Shown: positions 136 through 58,943 of the stretch, piece after piece | Numbering within the stretch: the first letter of the stretch is position 1 | Layout: every line of letters begins with the position of its first letter | Source: a virus | Lineage: Duplodnaviria; Heunggongvirae; Uroviricota; Caudoviricetes | IMG/VR virus record: IMGVR_UViG_3300037312_000757 | Length of the DNA stretch: 64,000 nt | Direction: 5' to 3' (one strand) | Made by a program: the position numbers and the translations under genes | Notes under the pieces: model-generated | What the model was told of the DNA's origin: nothing | Seen by the model: the letters and a program-made list of their open reading frames with translations, nothing else | Databases searched by the model: none

Positions 136-735
136 TCAGTCAGCTACTTGCAGACCGAACATCTTAACGAAGTCTTCCAGGCCCTTCTCAAAGCCTTCAC
201 CGACCGTCTTGAACGTCCAGTGACCATCGTTGTTACGCTTGATCTCGGCGAATGCGACCGCCGTTGCACGACCACCGTCTTCTTCGAGGTCAAAGCGGGC
301 GAGCTCTTCGCCACCCTTGTCCATGTCCATCAAGCGAATATAAGCGCCATCAACTTGACCGAACGTTTGCTTGCGTGCCACTGCGTCATAGATCGTGACG
401 ACGAAAGCAATTTCCTTAGCATTCTCAGGCAGTGCCGACAGACTCGGAATAACGATTGTTTCGAGGTCAGTTGCAACAGCACCACCAATCTTCTGGTCGC
501 CGCTATGCTTGATGACACCACCCGGGCAGCTTTGCTGGTGATAGAAGGCAACCCATTCTTCGCCAATCGACATTTCATCCGCGCCCAGCACGAATGCCGT
601 CAAGTCCAGGTCGAAGTCGGCTTGTGTGTCGTACTTCTTACCCTTCCAGCCAATAGCCACTGCAATATTGTTAAGCAGAGAGCCGTCCTCTTTGCGAAGC
701 TTGAGGCCTTCGCCCTTCTTGAGATTCAATGCCAT
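136..735 (-). CDS. terD: TerD-domain stress / tellurite-resistance family protein
   Basis: 199-aa ORF with near full-length TerD / general-stress-protein-16U pattern (MA.SL.KG...GW......D.DLD.S.F..G.......F..Q..FG.V.GAYIRL). ATG at 733-735. Confidence 0.85.
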   Translation of the reverse strand: MALNLKKGEGLKLRKEDGSLLNNIAVAIGWKGKKYDTQADFDLDLTAFVLGADEMSIGEEWVAFYHQQSCPGGVIKHSGDQKIGGAVATDLETIVIPSLSALPENAKEIAFVVTIYDAVARKQTFGQVDGAYIRLMDMDKGGEELARFDLEEDGGRATAVAFAEIKRNNDGHWTFKTVGEGFEKGLEDFVKMFGLQVAD

Positions 736-813
736 TTTATTCTTCTTTTGTTTTTGTTAGGCGGGGAATTACACCCCGCCGTTATTCTACAACTCTACTT
801 GCCAGTTGCAACC

Positions 814-1878
814 TTAGTTGGCAACTTGCTCCGTCTTGGCTTCAGCAATAGCATCAGCCTTGTTCGCACGAATTGAATGATAACCAGCAGCAACGATCAG
901 CACCGCACCGATCAGACCAGTGAACCATTCCGGCACTTCGTACGCAGTATTCACGAACATAATCGCAGCCAGGACACCAATAGCCCAGAACGCACCGTGT
1001 TCGAGATAACGCAACGTGTTCAGCACGCCACCTTCCGTCAAGTAGATTGTGAGGCTTCGTACAAACAGCGCACCAATACCCAGACCAGCAGCGATCACGA
1101 TAAAGTTATTCGACAGTGCAAACGCACCAATCACACCGTCAAAGCTGAACGACGCGTCGACAACTTCAATGTGAACTAGTGCCGCAATACCAGCCGATGC
1201 AGCAACACCAGTCGCAACGCCGCTTGCCATAGCCGCTTCATTTTGACCTTCCATCAGCTTCTTGATACCACCAACGAGTACGTTAGCAATGATACCAACC
1301 ATCGAAGCAATCACGAATTCGAATTTGTGATCGGCCGGAACGATCAGCGAGAACAGAGCAACCACGATCAGCGTAAATGCAACTTGCGCCATTTCGATCT
1401 TGCCGAGTGCAGCCAGCTTCGTTTCGATAAAGCCGACCCAGTGTTCGTCCTTTTCTTCGTCGATGAATTGCTCAGCGAACAGCATCATCAGGAACGCACC
1501 ACCAAATCCTGCGATTGTGATGTGTGCCGATTGTACGTGCGCAGCATATTCAGCTGGCTTTGCGATTGCGAGATGCAATGCTTCCAGCGGCGAGATCCAC
1601 GCAGTGACGCTGACGATCAAGATCGGGAACAGCAAACGCATAAACGCGACAGCGATCACCATACCCCAGACGAGGAACCACTTGCGTTGTTTCTCGTTCA
1701 TGTTTTCCAGCAGCGTTGCGTTGACTACCGCATTGTCAAACGACACACTGATTTCCAGGATGGCAAGAACGGTTGTTGCGACGAGACCACCTTCGATGCC
1801 GTAGAAAAACGCCATCAACGCGATGATGATCGGGGCGAGAAAAAGTTCCGCCTTAAAATACTTCCAAATCGTATTCAT
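814..1878 (-). CDS. TerC-family / DUF475-type integral membrane protein
   Basis: 354 aa with multiple TM helices and paired motifs (EISVSFDNAVVNA ; VDASFSFDGVIGAFAL) typical of TerC/DUF475 proteins. Adjacent to terD. Confidence 0.7.
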   Translation of the reverse strand: MNTIWKYFKAELFLAPIIIALMAFFYGIEGGLVATTVLAILEISVSFDNAVVNATLLENMNEKQRKWFLVWGMVIAVAFMRLLFPILIVSVTAWISPLEALHLAIAKPAEYAAHVQSAHITIAGFGGAFLMMLFAEQFIDEEKDEHWVGFIETKLAALGKIEMAQVAFTLIVVALFSLIVPADHKFEFVIASMVGIIANVLVGGIKKLMEGQNEAAMASGVATGVAASAGIAALVHIEVVDASFSFDGVIGAFALSNNFIVIAAGLGIGALFVRSLTIYLTEGGVLNTLRYLEHGAFWAIGVLAAIMFVNTAYEVPEWFTGLIGAVLIVAAGYHSIRANKADAIAEAKTEQVAN

Positions 1879-1896
1879 GATTTTTGATTTTTGAGA

Positions 1897-2619
1897 TTAG
1901 GCCGAAGCCGGGGCGAACTGCTTGATCCACGTGCAGAACTCTTCGTTCAGCAGCAATGCATAAAGCTGGTCGTCAGTCATGTTGTGAATGTCGGACAAAG
2001 CCGCAAACCCAACATTTGGTTCCGACTCTGCGAGATTCTGCAGGGTTTGGAAACGTTCACTACCAATGCCAAGGAACATCCAGTAAATGTTCTTGTCACG
2101 GGTGCTTGCGATCAGTTGCGCAGTGCGCTCAACGTCGCTATAGTCGTTTTCGCCGTCAGTGTTGAACATGACGAACATAGGCAGATTCGGATCAGTTGCG
2201 GCAACTTCTTTCTTGCCAAACAGTCGGCCAAGCAAACCTGGCTTGCTGCCACCATCCGGGTGATCGTATGCGTTGATCACGGCTTCGATCGCGCGTGAGT
2301 AAACAGTACCGCCACCGTGGAAGTGCGGAATGAGTTCCTTCTGAACATACGTGCCAAATGTGTCTGGCGTTGCATCAGCGAGCTTCTTAGCTGATGTGTT
2401 GAAGATGAACTGCTCGAGGCTTTGGTTGTCGTCGAAACGCACGGCAACAGCCAACGAACGGTCGACGGTTTCTTGCATCACACCGCTTTGATAAAGACCG
2501 CTCATGGAACCTGAGCCATCATTTACCATCACTACGCGTGCGATGAGGTTTTCTGGGACGTTGAACTTCTTGAGGCGGAGACCTACCAGTTCGGTCTTCT
2601 TCTGTAATGAAAGAGCCAC
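1897..2619 (-). CDS. von Willebrand factor A (vWA) domain protein, TerY-like
   Basis: 240 aa with MIDAS motif DGSGSM and later TDGE. GTG start preceded by AAGGA. Third gene of the ter-like cluster. Confidence 0.65.
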   Translation of the reverse strand: MALSLQKKTELVGLRLKKFNVPENLIARVVMVNDGSGSMSGLYQSGVMQETVDRSLAVAVRFDDNQSLEQFIFNTSAKKLADATPDTFGTYVQKELIPHFHGGGTVYSRAIEAVINAYDHPDGGSKPGLLGRLFGKKEVAATDPNLPMFVMFNTDGENDYSDVERTAQLIASTRDKNIYWMFLGIGSERFQTLQNLAESEPNVGFAALSDIHNMTDDQLYALLLNEEFCTWIKQFAPASA

Positions 2620-2695
2620 TTTTGTTTTTCCTTATTGTAGCAGCATGCTACGAGTTAATGCCAAACCGTAGTGTACAACAGTTTGGCAACCTTGC

Positions 2696-2878
2696 TTACG
2701 AAGCTGGTTTGAACTTGATACGAACTGGCTCTTCGTCTACGGAGAGACGATAGATGCGGGGCTCATGCCCTTGATTGACTAGATGATTAGCATATGACTG
2801 CGCATCTTCTTCATTTGCTCGATAACGCATGTTACCGATATTGAGGGCACCGCGATAGATTGACGTAACGAAATACAT
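2696..2878 (-). CDS. hypothetical small protein
   Basis: 60-aa ORF with no clear RBS. Upstream perfect palindrome GCCATATGTTatgAACATATGGC. Confidence 0.35.
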   Translation of the reverse strand: MYFVTSIYRGALNIGNMRYRANEEDAQSYANHLVNQGHEPRIYRLSVDEEPVRIKFKPAS

Positions 2879-2946
2879 TTGAATTGCCAGTTACGAAGAA
2901 AGCCATATGTTATGAACATATGGCAATCTTGTAAATGCAGAACTGG

Positions 2947-3264
2947 CTAAGCTGGTGGAAGCAGATGCTTGAAGTGAACGTAGTTGTCGATCACCCAATC
3001 ACGAGGCGAAACAAATTTGCCGCCTGTTGCGCTGCCGTTACGAACTTGATTGCTGTACGGCGGGATCTTCAGCAACAGATACATGGCCGCACCGTGGACG
3101 TATGGTACACCTGCATCTTCCCAAGCGTCCTTGTACTGTTCGACCTTGTCGCCATCGCAGGAGATTGCGCCCTGCACAGAATACAGATGTGTGGGGATCT
3201 CGAGGTTAGAGAAGAACGTGCCAAGATGTTCGTCCAGCCACTTGTAATGGTTGATATAAGCCAT
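2947..3264 (-). CDS. hypothetical protein
   Basis: 105 aa. RBS GGAAGTGGTG. TAATG overlap with the upstream gene. The plus-strand ORF 2935..3291 is an antisense shadow. Confidence 0.55.
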   Translation of the reverse strand: MAYINHYKWLDEHLGTFFSNLEIPTHLYSVQGAISCDGDKVEQYKDAWEDAGVPYVHGAAMYLLLKIPPYSNQVRNGSATGGKFVSPRDWVIDNYVHFKHLLPPA

Positions 3265-3551
3265 TACACCACTTCCAGTTCGTATGCTTGACCAAACGAG
3301 TGGTGATCATCGAACAGCTCTTCTTCGCAGCTCACGTGCGGACTGTTGAACTCCACGCTCAGCGATTCCCAGTCACGAGCACGCAAACCAACGGAACGCG
3401 TCCAGTTGACCTTGATTGTGGTTGATGTCGCCGGGTTATTGAACCGCATCGTCAGCTCGTCCACCTGCATGTCGTTGACAATCATGCGGATCATGTTGTA
3501 GAACTTCTGCGCTTCTTGCTTGGACAGGATGCGACCAACTTTCGTGTACAT
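3264..3551 (-). CDS. hypothetical protein
   Basis: Track ORF 3264..3593 trimmed to Met15 (MYTKVG) just downstream of AGGAGG. The first 14 codons are the translated promoter/leader repeat. Confidence 0.55.
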   Translation of the reverse strand: MYTKVGRILSKQEAQKFYNMIRMIVNDMQVDELTMRFNNPATSTTIKVNWTRSVGLRARDWESLSVEFNSPHVSCEEELFDDHHSFGQAYELEVV

Positions 3552-3605
3552 ACGCCCTCCTATTTGTTCACCATATAAACATGGTACGTTCATATGGTGA
3601 ACGAG

Positions 3606-4514
3606 TCAAGCGAGGCTGTCTTTATCAAGACAACCGAACATGCGGAGTGAAGCTTGGCGCATACGCTCACCCAGTACACGGTCATTGAACTTGTAAACGT
3701 TTATACGCATACGGCCGTAGGCGAACGGACCATCATCACCCACCAACAAGTCGACTTCACCTGTCTCTAGAGCTGCTACAGCGTCGTCAACGTCCCAGGA
3801 ATACGTGACCGATCGTTCTTGCTGGAACGGTATACTCTGTAGATGGCCGAGGTCAATGAAGAATTGTGCTTCATCCTTCAAACTCAGAAAGAACGTGGGT
3901 TCACCGTTGAAGTATCGATATACGTTGCCACGTTCGACGACTTCGAGCATGTTTTCACGCACGTATGTTGTACCACCTTCAACTTGGCGGTACTTGTTCA
4001 CACATTGTACACGATACGTGGTGATACGGTCGGAGCTGACATCGTCGTATTCAATGCTTTGCACAATGCCATATTCAAATTCACTGCGTCCACGGAAAGT
4101 GAACTTGATGAAGTCTCGTTCCCAAGCACGCGTAACAGGGAGATCAGCGATGAACGTTCGATTCTCGAGACGGTCGTCTACCACGTCGTGCCCTTCCGTG
4201 TTGCGTTCAGCGCGTGCATCGGAGAGTCGCCGATTGTATTCAGCCTTGTCAGTCATCGAGACTTTCCACATGTTGGGACTCGATGTGGTGCCGTCTTCCC
4301 ATTCGACGATAGCACCTCGGTCGATCTCGTAGATCCCAGGCTTTCGGGCCGAATAGCTGCCAATACGTGGTGAATAATGCAGAACGCGGTTCTTGCCGAC
4401 AATCACACCCTTCGTTCGATCCTTTACGGGGTCGCCTTTTTGCGCGTAATAGTCTTCACCACGATTGAAGATGACTTCGTCACCAACACGCATCACATTT
4501 TCAGTAAACGACAT
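3606..4514 (-). CDS. hypothetical protein (302 aa)
   Basis: Long ORF. RBS GGAGGTG before ATG. No recognised domain. Confidence 0.65.
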   Translation of the reverse strand: MSFTENVMRVGDEVIFNRGEDYYAQKGDPVKDRTKGVIVGKNRVLHYSPRIGSYSARKPGIYEIDRGAIVEWEDGTTSSPNMWKVSMTDKAEYNRRLSDARAERNTEGHDVVDDRLENRTFIADLPVTRAWERDFIKFTFRGRSEFEYGIVQSIEYDDVSSDRITTYRVQCVNKYRQVEGGTTYVRENMLEVVERGNVYRYFNGEPTFFLSLKDEAQFFIDLGHLQSIPFQQERSVTYSWDVDDAVAALETGEVDLLVGDDGPFAYGRMRINVYKFNDRVLGERMRQASLRMFGCLDKDSLA

Positions 4515-4515
4515 T

Positions 4516-4707
4516 TCACCTCCTGAAAGATTGACCGGCTTCGCGCAGCTTGACTTGATCGATGATAGCCGAAAGCTTGAAACCTTCTTCCATCACACGT
4601 CGTGTTTGCTCGTCGTCACGCATCAACCAGATTATGGTTGCGAAAGCCCCTCCTATCTCGATGATGCTGGCACCACCGAGAATGACGGGGAAGAGTAGGC
4701 TATTCAT
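4516..4707 (-). CDS. small membrane protein
   Basis: Start moved to MNSLLFPVILGG (hydrophobic helix) to avoid an ~70-nt overlap with the upstream gene. Weak RBS. Confidence 0.4.
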   Translation of the reverse strand: MNSLLFPVILGGASIIEIGGAFATIIWLMRDDEQTRRVMEEGFKLSAIIDQVKLREAGQSFRR

Positions 4708-4987
4708 AGCTGTATTCGGCCGGATCGACGAAACCAGCTGCGGCAACGAATAGATCATCAGCTTTGGCAAGGCTTTCGATGTGATCTTCCATTTCCAACC
4801 ATTCGAGCATACTCACGCCATCATGCTTGTCCATGGCGTCAATAGCGTGGCCACCGTTGAGGCGGGCGTCGATCTCTGCGCACACAACTTCATACATCGG
4901 ATGCATTTCGTTGGCCTCGATCTTGGCCAGCTCCAGGTCAGTCATCTTCTTGACCGACGTCAGTTGCTGGTAATCGAAATCGACCAT
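4700..4987 (-). CDS. hypothetical acidic protein
   Basis: Trimmed to Met17 (MVDFDYQQ) after GGAGAG. Promoter repeat upstream. Confidence 0.55.
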   Translation of the reverse strand: MVDFDYQQLTSVKKMTDLELAKIEANEMHPMYEVVCAEIDARLNGGHAIDAMDKHDGVSMLEWLEMEDHIESLAKADDLFVAAAGFVDPAEYSYE

Positions 4988-5055
4988 TTCTACTCTCCTT
5001 GAATGTTGTTCGCCACACGCAAATGGTAAGTTCATATGAGGGTGGCGTCAAGCGC

Positions 5056-5364
5056 TCACAGTTGAGTCTTCATCTTTCGCATCATCTGCGCAACGGAAAT
5101 GCATCCAGCTTCGCGCCCGCGTTGATCCACAATTGACATTCTGGCACGATCACCGCGCATTCCCGTACCGAATTCACGACCTCGTTCGGTTGCTTGCTTT
5201 GCAAGTTCCTCCAGAAGAAAGCCGGTAAACTTGCGCAGTTCATCCGTAACCATGATACGTTCACGGACACCCTGCGCCTCACCGTTTGCGTCGATGATGC
5301 CATCGGAGACATCGAAACCTGCTTGGCGGGCCAGTGCGAAAATGTCGATCTTCGTTGCCATCAT
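5056..5364 (-). CDS. hypothetical protein
   Basis: 102 aa. RBS GGAGAAC. Promoter repeat at 5370-5415. Confidence 0.55.
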   Translation of the reverse strand: MMATKIDIFALARQAGFDVSDGIIDANGEAQGVRERIMVTDELRKFTGFLLEELAKQATERGREFGTGMRGDRARMSIVDQRGREAGCISVAQMMRKMKTQL

Positions 5365-5415: not shown

Positions 5416-6282
5416 TCAAGTGCCTGAAACAGCAGCGTAGAGGATTTCGATGCAGACGTCTTCAGTTTCGAAGTCAACGTCACGCTCTGGGTTGTATTCA
5501 ACCAACTCAAAACCGACTAACTTGGTTTTGTCCATGACTTCGAATGCCGTAACAACTTCCCACGCATCAAGCCCATTTTCTTCTGGAGAACCAACGCCAG
5601 GAGCTTGCTTCGGGTCAATCGAATCAACATCAAACGTGATACCAAATCCGATTGTGTTCTTTGTAACGATTTCTATTGCCTCGCCCAAGCAATAGAGAAA
5701 ACCTTTCTGTTGTACTTCTTCGATACGCATGACGCGAACACCCATGCTGGCAAGCAATTGTTCCTCGCCTGCTTCGCTGCTACGGGCGCCGATCACCACA
5801 ACGTTTTCTGGCTTGAACTTGGGCAGCGCATCAGCAATGCTAGTCAACTTATCATTGCCCTTACCTAGCAAGTGAGCCAAGGGCATACCATGAGGCGCAC
5901 CACTTTCTGATGTTTCAGGTGTATGGCTGTCCAAGTGTGCATCGATCCAAATCAGGCCGATGTCACCACGATCACGGTAGGTTTTCGCTATCGCACTCCA
6001 GGTACCAATAGCACAAGAATGATCGCCGCCGATCACGACAGGGAATACTTCCCGCTTCATCACTGCATCAACTGCTGATGCCAAGCGTGGCATGTAATCT
6101 TCGACAATAGCCATCTTGGATCCGAGCGACGCATCTGACGTGACCGTTTGGCCTAAGGCGATTGTAAGTTTGTGGGATTGAAGATCTTGAAGACGTTGCT
6201 GCAATGCAGCCGGGCCAGCTTTGCACTGGACAATTCGGGCACCTTCGCCAATCTCGGCGAAGACTACTTCGATATGAGACAT
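5416..6282 (-). CDS. arginase/agmatinase/formiminoglutamase-family ureohydrolase
   Basis: Ureohydrolase signature motifs GGDHS, DAHLD and FDVDSIDP present. Start set at MSHIEVV (GGGAG 5 nt upstream). Confidence 0.8.
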   Translation of the reverse strand: MSHIEVVFAEIGEGARIVQCKAGPAALQQRLQDLQSHKLTIALGQTVTSDASLGSKMAIVEDYMPRLASAVDAVMKREVFPVVIGGDHSCAIGTWSAIAKTYRDRGDIGLIWIDAHLDSHTPETSESGAPHGMPLAHLLGKGNDKLTSIADALPKFKPENVVVIGARSSEAGEEQLLASMGVRVMRIEEVQQKGFLYCLGEAIEIVTKNTIGFGITFDVDSIDPKQAPGVGSPEENGLDAWEVVTAFEVMDKTKLVGFELVEYNPERDVDFETEDVCIEILYAAVSGT

Positions 6283-6308
6283 TAGAACTCCCAGACGATG
6301 TATGGCAA

Positions 6309-6350
6309 TTGGCACGGACTCAAGTATAACAGTCCGTGCCAATTTTTTGT
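6309..6350 (+). terminator. hairpin plus T-run oriented on the plus strand in a minus-strand block
   Basis: TTGGCACGGACTcaagtataacAGTCCGTGCCAA plus TTTTTTG. No plus-strand gene upstream. May block antisense read-through or act bidirectionally. Confidence 0.4.
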
Positions 6351-7861: not shown

Positions 7862-8791
7862 TTACTTCAGGTCATAGTAGGACCAAAGACCTTTGTTTCC
7901 AGCCTGCACAACTTGCCATTTCGGGTGCGTGCCGGTCGTGTCCTTCAGGTCCGGGAGTGCTTGCGCTTCGCATGCACGCAGACGTTTCAGTTGATCGATC
8001 TTCTGTGCGCTGTTGTACACACGCGACACGAGCAGAGCTTCAGTTGCGACCGTTTCGACACCGCGTTGGCCGAGGTTGCCATAGCTGACACGCGCGGGCT
8101 TGTACACTTTCGACAATGCTGCCGCTTGTTGCGGCGTCACCGTGAGCAGCTTGAAACGATTGTCGAGGCTTGCGACCGTCGAGAGCGGGGCGCCGCCGAC
8201 TGCTACGAACGCGTCGATCTTGCCGGCTTGCAGCGCTTGCGAAGCTTCGTCGTTGCTGTTGAACGTGATGATGTTGTAGTTGATCTTGGCGAGTGCCTTG
8301 ACCACTTCGGCAGTCAGCGCTGAGCCGCCCACCGCGCCAATGTTGCGGCCGTTCAGATCACCGATGTTGTTGAACACGACTTGCTTGCCGCCGATCGAGA
8401 AGCCACCGAGGCTCATGCCGCCTTCATGCACGCCGTCAGCTCGAGCGACGAAGTGAACTTCTTCGGGGAAAAGTGCCACGACAGTTCGCACGTTGTTCAG
8501 GTCGTCTTCGCTGCGTGCGCGCCAGAACAGTGCGTCGGTCTGCACGATGGCAGCGTTCACCTTGTTCTGCTCCAGCATGTCGAGGTTCGCGTTTGAGCCG
8601 TTCGACGGCACTTCTTGCAGTTGCACGCTACCGCAGCGCGATTGCAGTTCCTTGAACATGCGGCTGTAGGTCAGCTTCTGGTCACCCGTTGCAACCACCA
8701 GCGACTGTGCTTGAGCCACACCCGAGATCGCGACGATCATTGCCAGGCCCACCGATACACGCGTGATGAAACGTTTCATATTCATGTTCAC
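7862..8791 (-). CDS. periplasmic solute-binding protein, TAXI-family TRAP receptor-like
   Basis: Signal peptide (MKRFITRVSVGLAMIVAISGVAQA). ATGD..LTY...VQ.DAL pattern like TAXI/NMT1-type solute-binding proteins. GC-rich relative to neighbours. Confidence 0.6.
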   Translation of the reverse strand: MNMNMKRFITRVSVGLAMIVAISGVAQAQSLVVATGDQKLTYSRMFKELQSRCGSVQLQEVPSNGSNANLDMLEQNKVNAAIVQTDALFWRARSEDDLNNVRTVVALFPEEVHFVARADGVHEGGMSLGGFSIGGKQVVFNNIGDLNGRNIGAVGGSALTAEVVKALAKINYNIITFNSNDEASQALQAGKIDAFVAVGGAPLSTVASLDNRFKLLTVTPQQAAALSKVYKPARVSYGNLGQRGVETVATEALLVSRVYNSAQKIDQLKRLRACEAQALPDLKDTTGTHPKWQVVQAGNKGLWSYYDLK

Positions 8792-12069: not shown

Positions 12070-12738
12070 TTACTTCAGAAGTGGTAAGAGCTTTTGAATT
12101 GCGGTGCTGATACGCGCCAACGTACCGAGTGGGGCCACTGCTTCGTATAATGCATCAAACGTTGTATTGGGTGCCGTGATGTTGAAAAGCTGGTAGACCT
12201 CGGATTTTACATCGTCGCGCTTTTCTTGCAATTCCGCACGTCGTTCAGCGGTCAGCTTTTCCCGCTCTTCCCTGCGAGTACGCTCTTCTTCTATACGGCT
12301 TGCGACAACCCGCAGTTCGTAGTCACGCAGTTCGACCATCAACAACCTGAGGGCTTCGTCGAATGTTCGTTCACCGTTGACGAAGTAATATTGTGCAAGT
12401 GTACGCCGATCATATGGCGCATAGATCTTCTCAGACACATATCCGTATTTGATGAGTCTGATTTCGAGCCGATCGCCATTTACATATGGAAGGACTTCCA
12501 TTTTAACACGTCGGCCAGCTTCGGTTTCTGCAAAATATGAAAAATGAACGATCGGATACTTGTCATTGTCCGAATCTTTGCCATTGACAATTGGGATGAA
12601 TCGACCGTTTGGATATTCTTCTGCAAACTTGCGATAGACCGCTTTCACGTCACCCCGAGTTCCAACATTCATGGTGTTGAAGAGATCAGGATAAGTGAGA
12701 ATCAGCTTGACGAATGATTGTTCGGCCTTGCTCGTCAT
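12070..12738 (-). CDS. hypothetical protein, paralog family D (coiled-coil C-terminus)
   Basis: 222 aa. MTSKAEQSFVKLILTYPDLFN ... IQKLLPLLK. Confidence 0.6.
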   Translation of the reverse strand: MTSKAEQSFVKLILTYPDLFNTMNVGTRGDVKAVYRKFAEEYPNGRFIPIVNGKDSDNDKYPIVHFSYFAETEAGRRVKMEVLPYVNGDRLEIRLIKYGYVSEKIYAPYDRRTLAQYYFVNGERTFDEALRLLMVELRDYELRVVASRIEEERTRREEREKLTAERRAELQEKRDDVKSEVYQLFNITAPNTTFDALYEAVAPLGTLARISTAIQKLLPLLK

Positions 12739-13406
12739 GCCGCAATTCCTTGTGCGTTGATACTGCGGTAAATTCGCATCTGAGTCGTCAACATGAATTT
12801 GATGTTCTCGTAGACTGGTTCTTGCTCAGGAAAGTTGCGCCGTGCAAGCTTCAGGAATGTGAAGAAGTGTTCTTCCGTTTCGTCGCAGTATTTCACCTGT
12901 TTCTCTAGCGTGAACACACCAGCCATGGTTCGCATGTTGTGGACACGATCACTGCCCTTCACCACAGACACGCGGTAATTATCGGACAGTGGGCCAAAAT
13001 ACGCGTCAGGTGTTTTCTTCTCACCACGGTATTCTTTAGCCAGCAGTCTACAGTCAGTAGCAACGATTTCATCAGTCACTTCACCAATTTCTTCGAAGCT
13101 GATCTGATCGCCGTAGTCTTCACCCAGGTCGTGCAGTAGGGCATCAGCAATGGTGCGAGGAGCGTCTGTCAGCAGCTTCTCCATGGTCAGGAGATACAAC
13201 GCGATTTCAATCTGGTGTTGGAACTCGGGCGTCTTGCCGTCCTTGCGGAAACCTGTGTGATACTTCAGACCGAGATCAAGAGCACGAACAGCAATGAACC
13301 AAGCAGGATCGAGTGATGCACGCCCCATCAGCTGATAACGAAGAGCCATCTTGAGCTTTTCGTAGTGCAGGATTTCGGGGGTTACGATCTTCTGCTCGCT
13401 TGCCAT
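12735..13406 (-). CDS. HD-domain phosphohydrolase, RelA/SpoT-like (p)ppGpp-hydrolase-like
   Basis: HQIEIALYLL ... ALLHDLGEDY matches the H..HD..ED signature of SpoT/Mesh1 hydrolase domains. Start at MASEQK (GGAG 9 nt upstream). Confidence 0.6.
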   Translation of the reverse strand: MASEQKIVTPEILHYEKLKMALRYQLMGRASLDPAWFIAVRALDLGLKYHTGFRKDGKTPEFQHQIEIALYLLTMEKLLTDAPRTIADALLHDLGEDYGDQISFEEIGEVTDEIVATDCRLLAKEYRGEKKTPDAYFGPLSDNYRVSVVKGSDRVHNMRTMAGVFTLEKQVKYCDETEEHFFTFLKLARRNFPEQEPVYENIKFMLTTQMRIYRSINAQGIAA

Positions 13407-13452
13407 AGCAGGCTCCAAGGTTAGATTAGGTATGGCTGATGATAGCTTCGCG

Positions 13453-22405: not shown

Positions 22406-22482
22406 CTGGTCTCGGGTGTGGGATTCGAACTCACGTCACCTGGTCCCAAACCAGGCACACTAACCAGGCTGTGCTAACCCGA
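22406..22482 (-). tRNA. tRNA-Pro (anticodon UGG)
   Basis: Hand-folded cloverleaf: acceptor CTCGGGT/ACCCGAG, D-arm GCAC/GTGT, anticodon stem CCTGG/CCAGG with loop TTTGGGA, T-loop TTCGAAT, encoded CCA. Confidence 0.8.
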
Positions 22483-22611
22483 GATATGTAGTTCCGTGTT
22501 CATGGTTGTATCACAATCGTCTACAGCATACATGAACAGAGTGTCGACCCTCTTGGAACTACGGGGGTGGAAGTTCCGCATCCGCGTAGACTTGGAACTT
22601 CCGATCACTGT

Positions 22612-22623
22612 GGGGGGGGGGGG
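22612..22623. repeat. G12/C12 homopolymer tract inside the tRNA cluster spacer
   Basis: 12 consecutive G on the plus strand between tRNA-Pro and tRNA-Ala, within a highly structured ~165-nt spacer. Confidence 0.7.
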
Positions 22624-22651
22624 CCAGCTTTCGCCAGCGCCCTTAAAATCT

Positions 22652-22727
22652 TGGTGGAGGTAGACGGGATCGAACCGACGACCTTTAGCTTGCAAAGCTA
22701 CTGCTCTCCCAGCTGAGCTATACCCCC
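22652..22727 (-). tRNA. tRNA-Ala (anticodon UGC)
   Basis: GGGGGTATAGCTCAGCTGGGAGAGC... with G3:U70 Ala identity pair, anticodon loop TTTGCAA, T-loop TTCGATC, CCA. Confidence 0.8.
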
Positions 22728-22728
22728 A

Positions 22729-22804
22729 TGGTACATCCTGACGGGATCGAACCGCCGACCTTCGCCTTGTAAGGGCGTTGCTCTACCAGCTGAGCTAAGG
22801 ATGC
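22729..22804 (-). tRNA. tRNA-Val (anticodon UAC)
   Basis: GCATCCTTAGCTCAGCTGGTAGAGC..., anticodon loop CTTACAA, T-loop TTCGATC, CCA. Only 1 nt from tRNA-Ala. Confidence 0.75.
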
Positions 22805-42662: not shown

Positions 42663-43169
42663 TTACGCCTTCTGCTGTAGTGCTTCGAGGACCAGCGGGT
42701 GAATGTACTTTGCGACTTTCACTTCCCAGTTGTCGAAGCCGACAAACCCGCGCACCGCTGATGAACTGATACGAGTTTTGTCTTCGGGCGGGATAACGAA
42801 AACATGGTCGATTTCGCTTTCGATATCCATGTTGAACCCTTGAATGTCTTTCTCGTAATCGAAATCGACACCGTTCCGAATACCGCGCATGATTGTGGTA
42901 ACGCCCAAGCGCTTCGCCACGCTGACGGTGAATTCATTTTCGACAACTACAAACTTCAGCTTTGCGAACAGTTCAGGTGTCAGAGAATCAGCTAGTACAC
43001 GACGAGCCAGGTCTTCACGCTCAACAGCATTGAACATGCCCTTCTTTGCTGGATTGTAGGCGATTGCAAAGTAGACTTCATCGAATGTCTTGCAAGCTCG
43101 TTCGACCATCCACTCATGGCCACGGGTGATGGGGTCGAATGACCCCGTTGTCATACCAATCGTGTACAT
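42663..43169 (-). CDS. coaD: phosphopantetheine adenylyltransferase (CoaD/PPAT)
   Basis: TGSFDPITRGHEWMVERA ... RGIRNGVDFDYE ... ISSSAVRGF aligns along the full length of CoaD (T/HxGH motif and ISSS motif). TAATG-coupled to coaE. Confidence 0.8.
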   Translation of the reverse strand: MYTIGMTTGSFDPITRGHEWMVERACKTFDEVYFAIAYNPAKKGMFNAVEREDLARRVLADSLTPELFAKLKFVVVENEFTVSVAKRLGVTTIMRGIRNGVDFDYEKDIQGFNMDIESEIDHVFVIPPEDKTRISSSAVRGFVGFDNWEVKVAKYIHPLVLEALQQKA

Positions 43170-44404
43170 TAGATCCAACGCCCCCATTTCTTGATGATGT
43201 TGTTTACGTTGCGCTTCGCGTTGTCCTCGAATTGCGAGAAGTGCGGCGAATGGAAAATCCGTTCACGATCAGCAAACGTCTTCATTGCCACGACTCGACC
43301 ACGAGCAAATGTGATGACGTCGTATTGGTCTTTGAATTCTTGATACACCGCTTCGTCGAACGCATTAGCTTCTGCTTCAGTTCCGCCGAGCATCATCAAG
43401 TCCACGTCCAAGAACAGTTCGCAATCAGCTTTCAGTTCAGGATTCGAAAGCAAGTATGGAGACGTGATCGCATGGCCTTTAGTCGCCATGATGAATTCGG
43501 CAACCGTGGCCAGTGTCGGTATACCAGCTTCAATCTCGAAGCCCAGTGCTTCTGGCAGATGCTCCCTGAACTGTTCCATCATGAACTTGACACTCCACGC
43601 TTCGTTGAAGGCGTACAGGTCCTTGTAAGCGCTGTAGACAGCGTCGTGATAGATGATTGCCAGTCCCGCAATGCCCGGATAGTTAAACTTTTCGACGTTG
43701 TTCATGAACCAGCGGTACATCTGGCGTGGATGATCAGCGTTATGCCAGTGCCGACTCGTATCGAAATACTGCTTCATTGCATTGTCGAACAGAACACCAG
43801 CTTCCTTTTCGTGACCGTAGAATGCACCCTGGAAAAACAAACGCAGATCTTGCAGCGAGATACGATCAGCAATGCGCTTCGCCTCGTCCTCCAGATCCTC
43901 GAGAGAAATGTTGGTATCAACCGTGTCGTCGGCCATTGCGATCTTGACACGCGTGCTCAGTTGCGCTGCGCGGATGCGTTCGATCTTCTCCTGCGTGAAG
44001 CCATCTCGCGCCATCACACGCTGCATCTGCACGTCATCTGCGCAGTGACACGTGATGACAAAGTCATACTTGCCGCTCTTGCCCATTTCGTACAGAAGCG
44101 GGAACTCCATCACCAGATGTTTCTTGTAGTCGTAGTTCGCCAGCTTCCAACGCATTGTGTCCTTGGTCAGGTCTTCCAACCACAGACGATCGGCCGAGTT
44201 GTTGAACACGATGTCCGACACCTTCTTGCGGTCGGACGTGCCGAAGCGATTCTCGAGATCAAGCTTGAACGCTTTGTCGTTGTAGAGGTCGCGAACCATG
44301 TCGTCGATGCTTGCGTGCTCGTAGTTTGCCGCCAAGTGTTTCAGCAGCAACTTCGTGAATGTTGTCTTGCCACAGCCGATGTTGCCAGTGATGGCTACTC
44401 GCAT
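43169..44404 (-). CDS. coaE: dephospho-CoA kinase (CoaE) fused to a C-terminal HD-domain phosphohydrolase
   Basis: N-terminal MRVAITGNIGCGKTT P-loop and CoaE-like blocks (IDDMVRDL, FPLLYE, DDTVDTN). C-terminal HWHNADHP...IIYHDAVY HD motif. RBS GGGAGA. Confidence 0.8.
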   Translation of the reverse strand: MRVAITGNIGCGKTTFTKLLLKHLAANYEHASIDDMVRDLYNDKAFKLDLENRFGTSDRKKVSDIVFNNSADRLWLEDLTKDTMRWKLANYDYKKHLVMEFPLLYEMGKSGKYDFVITCHCADDVQMQRVMARDGFTQEKIERIRAAQLSTRVKIAMADDTVDTNISLEDLEDEAKRIADRISLQDLRLFFQGAFYGHEKEAGVLFDNAMKQYFDTSRHWHNADHPRQMYRWFMNNVEKFNYPGIAGLAIIYHDAVYSAYKDLYAFNEAWSVKFMMEQFREHLPEALGFEIEAGIPTLATVAEFIMATKGHAITSPYLLSNPELKADCELFLDVDLMMLGGTEAEANAFDEAVYQEFKDQYDVITFARGRVVAMKTFADRERIFHSPHFSQFEDNAKRNVNNIIKKWGRWI

Positions 44405-44501: not shown

Positions 44502-45071
44502 TTACCACGGAAAATCAGCCTTCTTGATCTTGACTAACCGACCATCAGGGTGCCACCAAACGACACCTTCAATCGGCTTATCACGCAGATATTCCATGAT
44601 GCCATCAAACGTGCGTGGGCAGTCTTCCAAGATATCCTTGCCGTGCGGGACAAGAATGTGCTCGGTCAAGCCTTCCGGATTAGCACCGTGCCGCGTCCCA
44701 ATCTTGGGGCCACAAGCCTCGTAAGTGCCATCAGGAATGCCATCAGCATACTTACCCTTCAAAGCCCATTCAACAGCTTCGCGAATCCACTTCGAATCCG
44801 GACCATCAGTAGGTACCCAGCCTGGCCAGTGACCAGACTTGGGATCCGGGTTAGGTTGGGCAGGGATGAAGTCCACGGGAGGGGTTCTCCCAGCCTTAGC
44901 GTCGTAACGCTTAAAGACTCGACCATCCTTTACCAACACGGCCACGCCATCCCACTTACGAGTGGCGTAACCTTCCCCAGAAACAACCCATTCAGTTCCG
45001 GGCGTAACTTCGTCACGAACCTTACGGTCACCATCGTAGTTACGAACAAACAACGAAACGGTCTTCTTCAT
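44502..45071 (-). CDS. minimal nucleotidyltransferase of the ligase superfamily (KxDG), RNA/DNA-ligase-like
   Basis: Start MKKTVSLF after AAGGAG. Motif I RKWDG, motif IV EGVVWW, motif V LVKIKK. Confidence 0.5.
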   Translation of the reverse strand: MKKTVSLFVRNYDGDRKVRDEVTPGTEWVVSGEGYATRKWDGVAVLVKDGRVFKRYDAKAGRTPPVDFIPAQPNPDPKSGHWPGWVPTDGPDSKWIREAVEWALKGKYADGIPDGTYEACGPKIGTRHGANPEGLTEHILVPHGKDILEDCPRTFDGIMEYLRDKPIEGVVWWHPDGRLVKIKKADFPW

Positions 45072-45193
45072 GTACTGCTCCTTAAAAGTGATGAGATAGT
45101 TTTCGAGTCCCATCAACGCCACCTTTAAGGCTTACTGCAACTTCCTTTACTGCTAAGCCATATTGTATATATGGCTCATACTACAGTCAAGCA

Positions 45194-48327: not shown

Positions 48328-48693
48328 TTACTTGTCAGCGTGGCGAGTGATGAAATTCACTCGCATGTGCTCAGGTGCAAAATACTTGTTCACCATGTCA
48401 ATCACAGTTTGCGTGTTGTATGACTTGCACGAAAAAACGTCGAAGTAACTTGTTCCGTCAAGTTCCATGAAGTGGCCACAGATGTTTGATGTTGTGATGA
48501 GCTGCATCAAGCTATAACCCTGCTTTGGATCGCCTGGGAGTAGATACTCGATGATAGGCTCGCCGTGCGCTTCCATATCGATAGCGACGACCAACTCTTT
48601 GATGAAGTTGTAGATTGCTTCCTTGCTGGCAATGCCGTTTTCGACCTTGCAACCAGCACAGTCGAGCATAAGGTGGTAACCGAAATATTTCAT
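48328..48693 (-). CDS. S-adenosylmethionine decarboxylase-like (SpeH/pyruvoyl-enzyme fold) protein
   Basis: Start MKYFGYH. G.HL..D..GC ... GYSLMQLITTSNICGHF ... DVFSC parallels the bacterial SpeH layout. Confidence 0.55.
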   Translation of the reverse strand: MKYFGYHLMLDCAGCKVENGIASKEAIYNFIKELVVAIDMEAHGEPIIEYLLPGDPKQGYSLMQLITTSNICGHFMELDGTSYFDVFSCKSYNTQTVIDMVNKYFAPEHMRVNFITRHADK

Positions 48694-48740
48694 AATAACC
48701 CCGTTCAAATTAAGGAACGTTTTAATTCGTTCGGGGTTAT
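48694..48740 (-). promoter_or_regulatory. stem-loop sequestering the RBS of the AdoMetDC-like gene
   Basis: ATAACCCCG...(28-nt loop with inner GAACG/CGTTC stem)...CGGGGTTAT. The 3' arm is the GGGG Shine-Dalgarno located 6 nt before the ATG. Confidence 0.4.
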
Positions 48741-48772
48741 TTATGACTACTCTATGGCTGTTACTTTTTCTT

Positions 48773-49213
48773 CTATTTTGCCATGCATTCGAGGTCTTTC
48801 TGCGTGACCGTCAGCGCAAGCGCTATCTTGAAGTGATCGACTGCACCAGCTAGGAATGCAGTCAGCTTCATCTTTTCGCCAGCAATGTACACATGATTCT
48901 GGCCGCCGCCTGCCGTTCCGCCTTCATACTTCTCCCAGCGGAACAGCGGCTTGCCATTCGGCGCAAGTTCAGCCGTTGTTGCGTTGAACGTGGTAAGACG
49001 AACATGATGATCCGACCAGGAATTGTAAGCAGGCGAACCTTCATACGTGCTACCAACCACACGCGCCAGCTTCAGATCGAATTGCGCGAGAATCGCCTTG
49101 ATCCTCTGATAGTTGTCGGTTTGCTTGTGAAAGTTGTGCGTTTCGGGATCACAATCGAACGAACCGAGCGGAATACCATTATCACGGCTGGGTTTCAGAT
49201 TGAAGCGCGACAT
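48773..49213 (-). CDS. hypothetical protein, paralog family C
   Basis: Start MSRFNLK. ...FRWEKYEGG...HVYIAGEKM...KIALALT shared with 49625..50065. Confidence 0.55.
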   Translation of the reverse strand: MSRFNLKPSRDNGIPLGSFDCDPETHNFHKQTDNYQRIKAILAQFDLKLARVVGSTYEGSPAYNSWSDHHVRLTTFNATTAELAPNGKPLFRWEKYEGGTAGGGQNHVYIAGEKMKLTAFLAGAVDHFKIALALTVTQKDLECMAK

Positions 49214-49286
49214 CGCTTTCTCCTTCAAGTTGTTTACCATGTTCAAATGATAAGGTCAAATGAACATGGTGTCAACTCCTTTTTAC

Positions 49287-50065: not shown

Positions 50066-50119
50066 GCAAGCTCCTTGTGAAATTATCGCCTTAGATGATA
50101 ATTTCACATGGTGTACAAA

Positions 50120-58789: not shown

Positions 58790-58943
58790 TGCCAAATCAA
58801 TATTGTTATTGTTATGGGAACTGCTGAGCGCATGATACATATGGCAACTGAAGCGTCAAGGTGCCAAATGACTATTTCACGTCTATTCTGGTTAACTGGC
58901 AACCTGTTGTAGAATGGCAACTATTCATTTACGAGTTAAAACA

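What the first reader, a model, noticed from the sequence alone, without database searches (positions are those of the whole stretch)
5416..6282. Polyamine-metabolism theme: agmatinase/arginase-family ureohydrolase (5416-6282) plus AdoMetDC-like gene (48328-48693) whose SD is buried in a stem-loop
The ureohydrolase has all three Mn-binding signature blocks (GGDHS, DAHLD, DVDSIDP). The 121-aa ORF at 48328-48693 follows the small bacterial SpeH-type S-adenosylmethionine decarboxylase layout (G.HL..D..GC ... GYSLMQLITTSNICGHF ... DVFSC), although the canonical Glu-Ser self-cleavage dipeptide is Thr-Ser here. Together they could make putrescine and decarboxylated SAM for spermidine-type polyamines, needed for packaging large DNA genomes. 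The AdoMetDC-like gene's GGGG Shine-Dalgarno is the 3' arm of a 47-nt stem-loop (ATAACCCCG...CGGGGTTAT, 48694-48740). That placement suggests structure-dependent translational control, possibly metabolite-responsive.
Basis: partly seen in the sequence, partly recalled or inferred. Interest (0 to 1): 0.6.

Follow-up and report, generated by a model that had tools for sequence, protein, structure and literature searches.

The report
Phage arginase plus pyruvoyl ornithine decarboxylase
A roughly 524-kb bacteriophage genome carries an arginase and a small enzyme that looks like S-adenosylmethionine decarboxylase but bears the signature of an ornithine decarboxylase, so together they most likely turn arginine into putrescine rather than make spermidine precursors.

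Summary
The interpretation needs correcting.

- **Ureohydrolase, 5416-6282(-).** It is arginase-like, not agmatinase-like. Its bacterial relatives sit in operons with ornithine-consuming enzymes.
- **121-aa protein, 48328-48693(-).** It has the AdoMetDC class 1b fold. All four diagnostic residues (Gln, Thr, Phe, Tyr) are present. The Pro of true AdoMetDCs is absent. The NCBIfam AdoMetDC model scores below its cut-off.
- **Pathway.** The pair most likely converts arginine to ornithine to putrescine. Decarboxylated SAM is not expected, and the window holds no spermidine synthase.
- **Distribution.** The pair recurs in a sister 524-kb genome and probably in a third lineage. SpeDC genes are common in phages. 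Arginase is very rare there, and a 2023 survey found none.
- **Leader hairpin.** It pairs the Shine-Dalgarno sequence and the AUG. It is kept in three lineages, with G-U-tolerant and compensatory changes. Other close relatives lack it, it matches no Rfam family, and it is one of about ten comparably structured leaders in the window. A metabolite sensor is unsupported.

This is a solid, moderately novel auxiliary-metabolism finding.

The parts
5416..6282 (-). Arginase-family Mn ureohydrolase, 288 aa; predicted L-arginase (arginine -> ornithine + urea)
   Evidence: Pfam Arginase scores 2e-55. TIGR01229 arginase scores 177.8 bits, below its 227.6 cut-off, against agmatinase at 75 bits. The best solved relative is B. 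caldovelox arginase 1CEV at 4.5e-48. All Mn ligands are invariant. Clade members in bacteria are adjacent to an Aminotran_3 gene or to ornithine cyclodeaminase.
6307..6344 (.). Perfect 14-bp inverted repeat between the upstream gene's stop and the arginase start; it does not cover the SD GGGAG
   Evidence: In the sense orientation the A-tract lies 5' of the stem, so the repeat looks like a terminator only for the opposite strand.
48328..48693 (-). AdoMetDC-fold (class 1b) pyruvoyl proenzyme of the SpeDC clade, 121 aa; predicted L-ornithine decarboxylase with self-cleavage at Thr68|Ser69
   Evidence: Pfam AdoMet_dc scores 63 bits. The NCBIfam AdoMetDC equivalog is not met, at 30.7 bits against 75.65. 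Q64, T68, S69, H74, F75, Y83 and C89 are conserved. The AF2 model (pLDDT 81.8) matches T. maritima AdoMetDC at TM 0.78. The SpeDC diagnostic residues come from PMC10407285.
48690..48746 (-). Leader hairpin of about 22 bp that pairs the Shine-Dalgarno GGGG (48699-48702) and the start codon (48691-48693)
   Evidence: z -4.5. It is conserved in L007 (z -5.7) and L138 (z -5.2), with compensatory and G-U changes. It is absent in L008, L011, L137 and L140.

Best explanation
**Proposed pathway.** The window comes from a bacteriophage genome of about 524 kb. It carries two unlinked auxiliary metabolic genes, 42 kb apart on the same strand. Together they form a two-step route from L-arginine to putrescine.
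1. The 288-aa protein is a binuclear-Mn arginase of a Burkholderiales-type subclade. It hydrolyses arginine to ornithine and urea.
2. The 121-aa protein is a SpeDC-type enzyme. It has the AdoMetDC class 1b fold. It should cleave itself between Thr68 and Ser69 to form an N-terminal pyruvoyl group, with His74 and Cys89 as the catalytic partners. It would decarboxylate L-ornithine to putrescine, not AdoMet.

The phage would thereby raise putrescine during infection. Putrescine would serve charge neutralisation of a very large packaged genome and support translation. Any spermidine synthesis would be left to the host.

**Leader hairpin.** The SpeDC mRNA leader folds into a long hairpin that occludes the SD and the AUG. 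It most likely lowers or times translation of read-through transcripts. It is unlikely to sense a ligand.

**Shown versus inferred.**
- Shown: family and fold membership, signature residues, co-occurrence of the two genes, and the conserved RNA structure.
- Inferred: substrate specificities, self-processing, the physiological purpose, and what the hairpin does.
For: **SpeDC identity.**
- The central motif QLITTSN..HF..YFDxFSC is invariant in 120 close homologs.
- Among 149 representatives clustered at 50% identity the counts are Gln64 144, Thr68 144, Ser69 145, His74 147, Phe75 123, Tyr83 121 and Cys89 143.
- PMC10407285 states that Gln, Thr, Phe and Tyr in this region are diagnostic for the ODC group, and that a Pro is completely conserved in true AdoMetDCs. 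The window has GHFMEL, with no Pro.
- A DNA pattern encoding the signature hits the taxa that paper lists for SpeDC. These include Nitrospira, Leptospira and other Spirochaetales, CPR bacteria, Omnitrophota, Anaerolineales, Peribacteria, Desulfotignum, Victivallales and Methanomicrobia.
- The NCBIfam AdoMetDC equivalog is below cut-off.
- The fold matches T. maritima AdoMetDC at TM 0.78, with Ser69 just after a turn between two strands.
- Phage AdoMetDC homologs of this kind were shown biochemically to be ODCs (PMC9992855).

**Arginase identity.**
- HMM and PDB ranking favour arginase over agmatinase.
- The Mn ligands, His141, Ser137 and the acidic pair at positions 183 and 186 are kept.
- Rhodoferax homolog P0229 overlaps an ornithine cyclodeaminase gene.
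- Homolog P0129 follows a class-III aminotransferase gene.

**Pairing of the two genes.**
- Both genes lie on the sister 523,572-bp contig, in the same order and on the same strand.
- Both are found in sample SRR23815405, on separate contigs.

**Phage origin.**
- The window carries a phage RNA ligase PHROG hit (2e-82), a dCMP deaminase, tRNAs and dense small ORFs.
- More than 192 IMG/VR viral loci carry the SpeDC gene.

**Hairpin.**
Against: - No enzyme assay exists for this protein or for any close relative.
- The nearest deposited phage homolog is Sinorhizobium phage phiN3 at 33.6% identity. It sits in the ODC clade yet complemented an E. coli speD mutant (PMC9992855). It has Gln, Phe and Tyr but Asp-Ser instead of Thr-Ser. 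The signature is therefore a strong guide, not proof.
- I could not see the paper's Figure 8. Mapping '2-Thr' to Thr68 is my inference from conservation.
- The arginase clade replaces two alpha-carboxylate-contacting Asn residues (human Asn130 to His, Asn139 to Ala). It falls below the NCBIfam arginase cut-off at 173-193 bits against 227.6.
- The two genes are 42 kb apart, so co-regulation is not shown.
- Only 64 kb of about 524 kb was examined. A spermidine synthase or other polyamine genes could lie elsewhere.
Confidence: 0.72

Rival explanations
1. The small protein is a genuine AdoMet decarboxylase with a variant cleavage site. The ureohydrolase, acting as agmatinase or arginase, supplies putrescine. 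The phage thereby drives spermidine synthesis.
For: - Pfam AdoMet_dc and PHROG 3125 'S-adenosylmethionine decarboxylase' both match.
- phiN3, the closest deposited phage homolog, is a bona fide AdoMetDC inside the ODC clade (PMC9992855).
Against: - The score is below the NCBIfam AdoMetDC equivalog cut-off.
- All four ODC-diagnostic residues are present and the AdoMetDC-specific Pro is absent.
- phiN3 differs exactly at the Thr position.
- No spermidine synthase homolog is found in the window (tblastn E > 0.2).
- The five freshwater phage homologs tested in PMC9992855 failed to restore spermidine and were ODCs.
Confidence: 0.07
2. The order of steps is reversed. The small protein is a pyruvoyl arginine decarboxylase (SpeDA-like). 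The ureohydrolase is an agmatinase. Arginine is converted to agmatine and then to putrescine.
For: - Pelagiphage HTVC201P's homolog is an ADC that groups with the SpeDC clade, and UCP01 has mixed ADC and ODC activity (PMC9992855).
- The arginase clade lacks two canonical carboxylate-binding Asn residues. Loss of carboxylate recognition is what one would expect of an agmatinase.
Against: - The pelagiphage ADC type (Eistla: ETSH..HSW, with no Phe or Tyr) differs from the window protein at the diagnostic positions.
- The ureohydrolase scores far better against arginases than agmatinases.
- It keeps the acidic residues that bind the alpha-amino group.
- Its bacterial clade-mates are operonic with ornithine cyclodeaminase or an aminotransferase.
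Confidence: 0.1
3. The two genes are functionally unrelated passengers. The arginase serves arginine depletion, nitrogen or urea release, or ornithine and proline supply. The SpeDC gene uses host ornithine independently.
For: - The genes are 42-55 kb apart and not in an operon.
- The SpeDC gene occurs in hundreds of viral contigs, while arginase is almost never seen in viral contigs. SpeDC therefore clearly works without a phage arginase in most phages.
Against: - The product of one enzyme is the substrate of the other.
- The pair is retained in at least two, and probably three, diverged genomes. Between them the arginases are 61-65% identical and the SpeDC proteins 83-86% identical.
- Ornithine supply is known to limit putrescine synthesis. 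Giant viruses pair arginase with an ODC (PMC9992855).
Confidence: 0.1
4. The leader hairpin is a ligand-responsive translational switch, sensing a polyamine, SAM, arginine or ornithine.
For: - It sequesters the SD and the AUG.
- It is conserved with compensatory and G-U changes in three lineages. The G-U pairs indicate selection on the sense-strand RNA.
- Polyamines are known to modulate translation of mRNAs with poorly accessible SD sequences in E. coli (the 'polyamine modulon'; my own knowledge, not checked here).
Against: - It is a plain, nearly perfect hairpin with two small internal loops and no multi-helix aptamer.
- There is no Rfam match.
- It is missing in the relatives that are 88-89% identical in protein (L137, L140). 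These have a classic terminator and an open SD.
- It is missing in most of 80 viral loci.
- Comparably structured leaders occur at about 10 other genes in the window.
Confidence: 0.06

Closest known systems
SpeDC: AdoMetDC-derived pyruvoyl-dependent L-ornithine decarboxylases (Li et al., PNAS 2023 PMC9992855; JBC 2023 PMC10407285)
   Same: - About 120 aa, with the class 1b AdoMetDC fold.
- Conserved Ser, His and Cys triad for processing and catalysis.
- The diagnostic Gln, Thr, Phe and Tyr are present, and the AdoMetDC Pro is lost.
- Encoded by freshwater and environmental phages without an adjacent spermidine synthase.
   Different: - Only 30-49% identical to the cellular signature-bearing proteins I retrieved.
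- The characterised phage proteins (LBP, UCP01-04) could not be fetched for direct comparison.
- Activity is untested.
- Here the gene is accompanied by a phage arginase and, in this lineage, by a structured leader.
Klosneuvirus KNV1 arginase + PLP-dependent ODC module (PMC9992855)
   Same: A virus-encoded two-step route from arginine to ornithine to putrescine, with a Mn arginase as the first enzyme.
   Different: - That is a giant eukaryotic virus, and its ODC is a PLP-dependent alanine-racemase-fold enzyme.
- Here the host is bacterial and the decarboxylase is pyruvoyl-dependent and non-homologous.
- That survey found no arginase homolog in phages.
Bacterial arginase (RocF) of the arginase pathway; Burkholderiales arginase + ornithine cyclodeaminase or aminotransferase operons
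   Same: - 44-57% identity to Burkholderiales proteins named arginase.
- Identical Mn-ligand and catalytic residues.
- The same clade-specific DAHLDSH..S[G/Q]APHG motif.
   Different: - Detached from the ornithine-catabolic partner genes.
- The clade as a whole is below the NCBIfam arginase equivalog cut-off, and I found no biochemical characterisation of it.
Thermotoga maritima AdoMetDC (PDB 1TLU, 1TMI, 1VR7), class 1b SpeD/SpeH
   Same: - Same fold (TM 0.78, rmsd 2.3-2.5 Å).
- Equivalent Ser63, His68 and Cys83.
   Different: - 18-19% identity.
- Glu-Ser is replaced by Thr-Ser, and HTWPE by GHFMEL.
- phmmer finds no PDB hit at E <= 1.
- The substrate pocket residues are diverged.
Phage T4-type translational occlusion hairpins (e.g. 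gene e and soc leaders) (from my own knowledge)
   Same: The SD and AUG are sequestered in a stable hairpin on transcripts that read through from upstream.
   Different: - No internal promoter was found in this hairpin.
- The T4 late-promoter motif (N)ATAAATA is not enriched in the window.
- An unrelated lineage (L192, L196) does carry TTGACA-17-TATAAT inside its hairpin.

Membership tests
AdoMetDC-fold pyruvoyl proenzymes, class 1b (Pfam PF02675) | Sequence match above the Pfam gathering score | tested here: met
   63 bits against a cut-off of 25, covering positions 1-106 of the 107-position model.
AdoMetDC-fold pyruvoyl proenzymes, class 1b (Pfam PF02675) | Alpha/beta sandwich fold of T. maritima AdoMetDC | tested here: met
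   The AF2 model (pLDDT 81.8) has 1VR7, 1TMI and 1TLU as top Foldseek hits, at TM 0.76-0.78 and E 5e-6.
AdoMetDC-fold pyruvoyl proenzymes, class 1b (Pfam PF02675) | Processing and catalytic Ser, His and Cys (T. maritima S63, H68, C83) | tested here: met
   S69, H74 and C89 are invariant across homologs.
AdoMetDC-fold pyruvoyl proenzymes, class 1b (Pfam PF02675) | Autocatalytic serinolysis producing a pyruvoyl group | not testable with these tools
   This needs SDS-PAGE or mass spectrometry of the expressed protein, with an S69A control.
Bona fide S-adenosylmethionine decarboxylase (SpeD/SpeH; NCBIfam TIGR03330) | Score at or above the equivalog cut-off | tested here: not met
   30.7 bits against 75.65.
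Bona fide S-adenosylmethionine decarboxylase (SpeD/SpeH; NCBIfam TIGR03330) | Glu-Ser cleavage site and the completely conserved Pro (HTWPE) after the catalytic His (PMC10407285) | tested here: not met
   The window has TTS and GHFMEL. The canonical MaAM05 speH_2 has SES and HTWPE in the same alignment.
Bona fide S-adenosylmethionine decarboxylase (SpeD/SpeH; NCBIfam TIGR03330) | A partner aminopropyltransferase (SpeE) encoded nearby | tested here: not met
   No SpeE-like sequence is found in the 64-kb window. The rest of the ~524-kb genome was not examined.
SpeDC pyruvoyl L-ornithine decarboxylase (PMC10407285) | Four diagnostic residues Gln, Thr, Phe and Tyr in the central region | tested here: met
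   Q64, T68, F75 and Y83 are present and are the dominant residues in 121-144 of 149 representatives. The same signature retrieves the taxa listed for SpeDC. The positional mapping to the paper's figure is inferred.
SpeDC pyruvoyl L-ornithine decarboxylase (PMC10407285) | Decarboxylates L-ornithine, not AdoMet, arginine or lysine | not testable with these tools
   An enzyme assay is required. The exception, phiN3, shows that clade membership alone is not decisive.
Arginase/ureohydrolase superfamily (Pfam PF00491) | Binuclear Mn site: His101, Asp124, His126, Asp128, Asp232, Asp234 (human ARG1 numbering) | tested here: met
   H88, D114, H116, D118, D218 and D220 are invariant in the clade alignment. 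Pfam scores 188.6 bits.
L-arginase (RocF; NCBIfam TIGR01229) | Score at or above the equivalog cut-off | tested here: not met
   177.8 bits against 227.6. The Burkholderiales proteins named arginase also fall short, at 173-193 bits. Arginase is nevertheless the best-scoring subfamily by about 100 bits.
L-arginase (RocF; NCBIfam TIGR01229) | Residues contacting the substrate's alpha-carboxylate and alpha-amino groups (Asn130, Ser137, Asn139; Asp183, Glu186; PMC5648838) | tested here: inconclusive
   Ser137 and Glu186 are kept, and Asp183 is Glu. Asn130 is His and Asn139 is Ala throughout the clade.
L-arginase (RocF; NCBIfam TIGR01229) | Genomic association with ornithine-consuming enzymes in cellular members | tested here: met
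   P0229 overlaps the ornithine cyclodeaminase gene. P0129 follows an Aminotran_3 gene with a LysR regulator.
Agmatinase (SpeB; TIGR01230 / NF002564) | Score at or above the model cut-off | tested here: not met
   75.1 bits against 174.3, and 74.7 against 302. It is 22% identical to phage MaAM05 SpeB at E 3e-5.
Riboswitch or other known cis-regulatory RNA (Rfam 15) | Match to a curated covariance model | tested here: not met
   The only hit is a chance miRNA match, at 24.9 bits against a gathering score of 100 and E 0.38.

The most novel reading that the evidence does not exclude
The most novel reading has two parts.
1. This megaphage lineage encodes the first complete bacteriophage-borne arginine-to-putrescine pathway. 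It pairs an arginase subclade of altered substrate-binding loop (His130/Ala139) with a pyruvoyl ODC.
2. The conserved SD/AUG-occluding leader hairpin is a polyamine- or metabolite-sensitive translational gate. It would give feedback control of phage putrescine synthesis.
Probability: 0.06. Interest if true: 0.7.

Novelty: new member of a known kind. Interest (0 to 1): 0.42.

Why it matters
Polyamines neutralise packaged DNA and support translation, and phage replication depends on them. Phage SpeDC ornithine decarboxylases were discovered only in 2023. The same survey found arginase in giant eukaryotic viruses but in no phage.

A ~524-kb phage carrying both enzymes would supply its own ornithine. 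It would not depend on the host ornithine pool. That would extend the virus-encoded arginine-to-putrescine module to bacteriophages, using a non-homologous, PLP-independent decarboxylase.

The finding is also a practical annotation warning. 'S-adenosylmethionine decarboxylase' labels on hundreds of phage genes with the Q..TS..HF..Y signature are probably wrong.

The arginase subclade with His and Ala in the carboxylate-binding loop is uncharacterised and worth an assay.

Tried and rejected
- **Nucleotide search of deposited phages.** Both regions gave no match.
- **Sequence search of the PDB with the small protein.** It found nothing. Structure prediction was needed instead.
- **First scan of 185,579 species genomes with family peptides.** It found no relative. 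The second scan used a signature pattern.
- **Characterised sequences.** The supplements of the two Li et al. papers hold no sequences, so the characterised phage ODCs could not be aligned directly.
- **T4-type late promoter inside the hairpin.** The hypothesis was that the conserved CATAAATA would let late transcripts escape occlusion. TATAAATA, CATAAATA and ATAAATA are at chance frequency in the window. No convincing sigma-70 promoter was found there. I dropped this as unsupported.
- **Hairpin as the upstream gene's terminator.** L007 has a separate strong terminator just upstream. The hairpin also lacks a U-tract. This is unlikely to be its main role.
- **RNAalifold on three leaders.** It undercounts covariation because MAFFT misaligns the L138 arms. 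I relied on the individual folds instead.
- **GNAT acetyltransferase at 58235-58840.** I checked it as a possible polyamine acetyltransferase. No specific family was assigned.
- **Close-relative scan of IMG/VR with the arginase.** It found nothing. The profile scan found only 3 distant loci, two of them giant-virus MAGs.
Full report
**1. Observation.**

Genes in this part of the window run on the minus strand. The ORF at 5416-6282(-) encodes a 288-aa protein. Its ATG at 6282 is preceded by GGGAG. It contains GGDHS, DAHLD and DVDSIDP.

The ORF at 48328-48693(-) encodes a 121-aa protein, MKYFGYHLMLDCAGC...LITTSNICGHF...DVFSC.

Upstream of it lies an inverted repeat with arms at 48694-48713 and 48722-48741. 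As RNA it extends to about 22 bp spanning 48690-48746. It pairs the GGGG Shine-Dalgarno sequence (48699-48702) and also the AUG (48691-48693). The MFE context is -31.1 kcal/mol, with z = -4.5.

**2. Source of the window.**

The arginase protein is found verbatim on a JGI metagenome contig of 523,837 bp.

The window has about 144 mostly small, same-strand ORFs with few family matches. It also holds three tRNAs, a phage RNA ligase (PHROG 14301, 2e-82), a dCMP deaminase, Ter proteins and CoaD/CoaE.

There is no nucleotide match to any deposited phage. Relatives of the small protein lie on more than 192 IMG/VR viral loci, on contigs of up to 316 kb. No close relative was found in 185,579 species-representative bacterial and archaeal genomes. 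I treat the source as a very large uncultivated bacteriophage.

**3. The small protein.**

- *Family and fold.* Pfam AdoMet_dc is met (63 bits). The NCBIfam equivalog for true AdoMetDC is not met (30.7 bits against 75.65). phmmer finds nothing in the PDB. An AlphaFold model (pLDDT 81.8) superposes on T. maritima AdoMetDC at TM 0.78. Ser69 follows a short turn between two strands.
- *Published background.* Li et al. showed that many phage AdoMetDC homologs do not complement speD. Instead they are pyruvoyl-dependent ornithine or arginine decarboxylases (PMC9992855). Their follow-up defines the ODC group (SpeDC) by four diagnostic residues in the central region: Gln, Thr, Phe and Tyr. Ser63, His68 and Cys83 (T. 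maritima numbering) stay conserved. True AdoMetDCs keep an invariant Pro (PMC10407285).
- *The window protein against that signature.* It reads Q64-L-I-T-T68-S69-N-I-C-G-H74-F75-M-E-L-...-Y83-F-D-V-F-S-C89. This block is invariant in 120 close homologs. It dominates in 149 representatives clustered at 50% identity: Q 144, T 144, S 145, H 147, F 123, Y 121, C 143.
- *Comparison in one alignment.* A canonical AdoMetDC (MaAM05 speH_2) has SES/HTWPE. A pelagiphage ADC-type protein has ETSH/HSW. Sinorhizobium phage phiN3 is the one proven AdoMetDC inside the ODC clade. It has Gln, Phe and Tyr but Asp-Ser.
- *Taxonomic check.* A DNA pattern encoding the signature retrieves the lineages the paper lists for SpeDC. 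These include Nitrospira, Leptospira, Saccharibacteria and other CPR bacteria, Omnitrophota, Anaerolineales, Peribacteria/Peregrinibacteria, Desulfotignum, Victivallales and Methanomicrobia. The window protein is 30-49% identical to the retrieved proteins.
- *Conclusion.* The Thr-Ser is the family hallmark, not a defect. The most likely activity is L-ornithine decarboxylation. This rests on signature and clade, not on an assay. I could not view the paper's figure to confirm the exact column mapping.

**4. The ureohydrolase.**

- *Subfamily ranking.* Among ureohydrolase subfamilies it scores far best as arginase. TIGR01229 gives 177.8 bits, against 84 for formimidoylglutamase and 75 for agmatinase. 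B. caldovelox arginase 1CEV scores 4.5e-48, against about 1e-12 for agmatinases. It remains below the arginase equivalog cut-off of 227.6.
- *Active site.* All six Mn ligands, His141 and Ser137 are present. An acidic pair occupies the positions that bind the alpha-amino group.
- *A clade-wide peculiarity.* Two Asn residues of the 130-139 loop contact the alpha-carboxylate in human arginase I (PMC5648838). Here they are His and Ala. This holds for the whole clade, including the Burkholderiales proteins that NCBI names arginase.
- *Genome context in bacteria.* In Rhodoferax saidenbachensis the homolog overlaps an ornithine cyclodeaminase gene behind an AsnC-type regulator. In another bacterial contig it follows a class-III aminotransferase gene and a LysR regulator. 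Both neighbours consume ornithine. I therefore take the clade to be genuine arginases with a variant loop, and I flag the specificity as untested.

**5. The pair.**

Arginase makes the substrate of the decarboxylase. The two genes are 42 kb apart here.

The sister contig Ga0466959_0000001 (523,572 bp) carries both, in the same order and on the same strand. There the SpeDC protein is 86% identical and the arginase 64% identical.

Sample SRR23815405 yields both on separate phage-like contigs that are syntenic with the window.

No spermidine synthase is detectable in the window. The rest of the genome was not available.

A profile scan of 2.9 million IMG/VR contigs for this arginase clade found only three distant loci, two of them giant-virus MAGs. 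The 2023 survey likewise reported arginase homologs in giant viruses 'but none in phage'.

The nearest precedent for the module is Klosneuvirus arginase plus a PLP-dependent ODC.

Independent work shows that phages benefit from raising arginine-derived putrescine (PMC11898732).

**6. The leader hairpin.**

- *Conservation.* The structure is conserved in three diverged leaders: the window (identical in L001), L007 and L138. Their z-scores are -4.5, -5.7 and -5.2.
- *Covariation.* The middle stem reads AACCCCG/CGGGGUU in the window, AGUUCCG/CGGGAUU in L007 and AUCUCCGA/UCGGAGAU in L138. Each variant shows a C-G to U-A double change. L007 also has G-U pairs. G-U pairs preserve RNA pairing only on the sense strand, which argues against a DNA operator.
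- *Start codon.* In all three, CAU pairs with the start codon.
- *Where it is absent.* The hairpin is missing from L137 and L140, whose proteins are 88-89% identical to the window's. These have a classic terminator and an open SD. It is also missing from L008 and L011.
- *Wider family.* None of 80 IMG/VR homolog loci reaches the window's energy (-25.3 kcal/mol; mean -12.2, sd 4.2). A separate lineage has evolved its own SD-occluding hairpin with a sigma-70-like promoter inside it.
- *Within the window.* The leader ranks about 10th of 143 for folding energy.
- *Other checks.* There is no Rfam match. No enrichment of T4-type late-promoter motifs was found.
- *Conclusion.* This is a selected RNA structure that should repress or time translation. 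Nothing points to ligand sensing.

**7. Verdict.**

The best model is a phage-encoded route from arginine to ornithine to putrescine, using an arginase and a SpeDC pyruvoyl ODC (confidence about 0.7).

Both enzyme families are known, and phage SpeDC is known. The new elements are a bacteriophage arginase, its pairing with a pyruvoyl ODC, and a lineage-specific structured leader.

Noticed in passing
window 42663-43187(-) and 43169-44404(-): These adjacent genes encode the last two steps of coenzyme A synthesis. CoaD (pantetheine-phosphate adenylyltransferase) scores 135.5 bits against a cut-off of 103.3. CoaE (dephospho-CoA kinase) scores 82.5 bits against 65.55. The CoaE protein carries about 230 extra, unassigned C-terminal residues.
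   Followed up: partly
window 136-2619(-): A tellurite-resistance-like cluster: TerD (136-735), DUF475/TerC membrane protein (814-1878) and a vWA TerF-like protein (1897-2619).
   Followed up: no
window 7862-8791(-); also L132 2861-3778 and L133 13450-14364: A TAXI/NMT1-type solute-binding protein with a weak hit (1.2e-5) to the lysine/arginine/ornithine-binding protein family. It stays within a few kb of the arginase gene in related phage contigs. A possible link to arginine handling was not tested.
   Followed up: partly
window 48773-49246(-) and 49625-50107(-): Two paralogous ORFs of about 146 aa lie directly upstream of the SpeDC gene. They are 33% identical (E 1e-22) and share a WEKYEG...QN.VY..G motif. 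No Pfam or PHROG family matches. They are present in L001 and absent in L007.
   Followed up: partly
window 50120-50899(-): A radical SAM protein related to RlmN/Cfr RNA methyltransferases, well below their cut-offs. It is conserved 1-2 kb upstream of the SpeDC gene in L001 and L005-L007.
   Followed up: no
window 6307-6344: A perfect 14-bp inverted repeat lies between the upstream gene and the arginase start. The T-tract follows the stem only on the plus strand, so it resembles an intrinsic terminator for antisense transcription.
   Followed up: no
L192, L196, L204, L206 (IMG/VR), about 60 nt upstream of the SpeDC start: This is an independent lineage. A sigma-70-like TTGACA-17-TATAAT lies inside the 5' arm and loop of a hairpin that pairs the AGGAGG Shine-Dalgarno sequence. 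Read-through transcripts would therefore be occluded, while promoter-proximal transcripts would not.
   Followed up: no
L003 (Microcystis phage MaAM05, MW495066.1) 2486-5264: A deposited 274-kb phage record carries a speH_2 - speH_1 - speE - speB cluster. speH_2 has the canonical SES/HTWPE. speH_1 has ES but no Pro, which is ADC-like. The cluster looks like a full arginine-to-spermidine module.
   Followed up: no
window 12735-13418(-), 22407-22804(-), 44502-45122(-), 58235-58840(-): Other accessory genes: an HD_4 (SpoT-like hydrolase) domain protein, a tRNA-Pro/Ala/Val cluster, an RNA ligase (PHROG 14301) and an unassigned GNAT acetyltransferase.
   Followed up: partly
L015 (Hydrogenophaga intermedia MAG contig, 23 kb) and L014, L081, L100, L101: The 'genome' hits closest to the window SpeDC protein (43-49% identity) lie on short MAG contigs of Proteobacteria, Chlamydiae and Bacteroidota. 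These may be mis-binned phage fragments rather than cellular genes.
   Followed up: no
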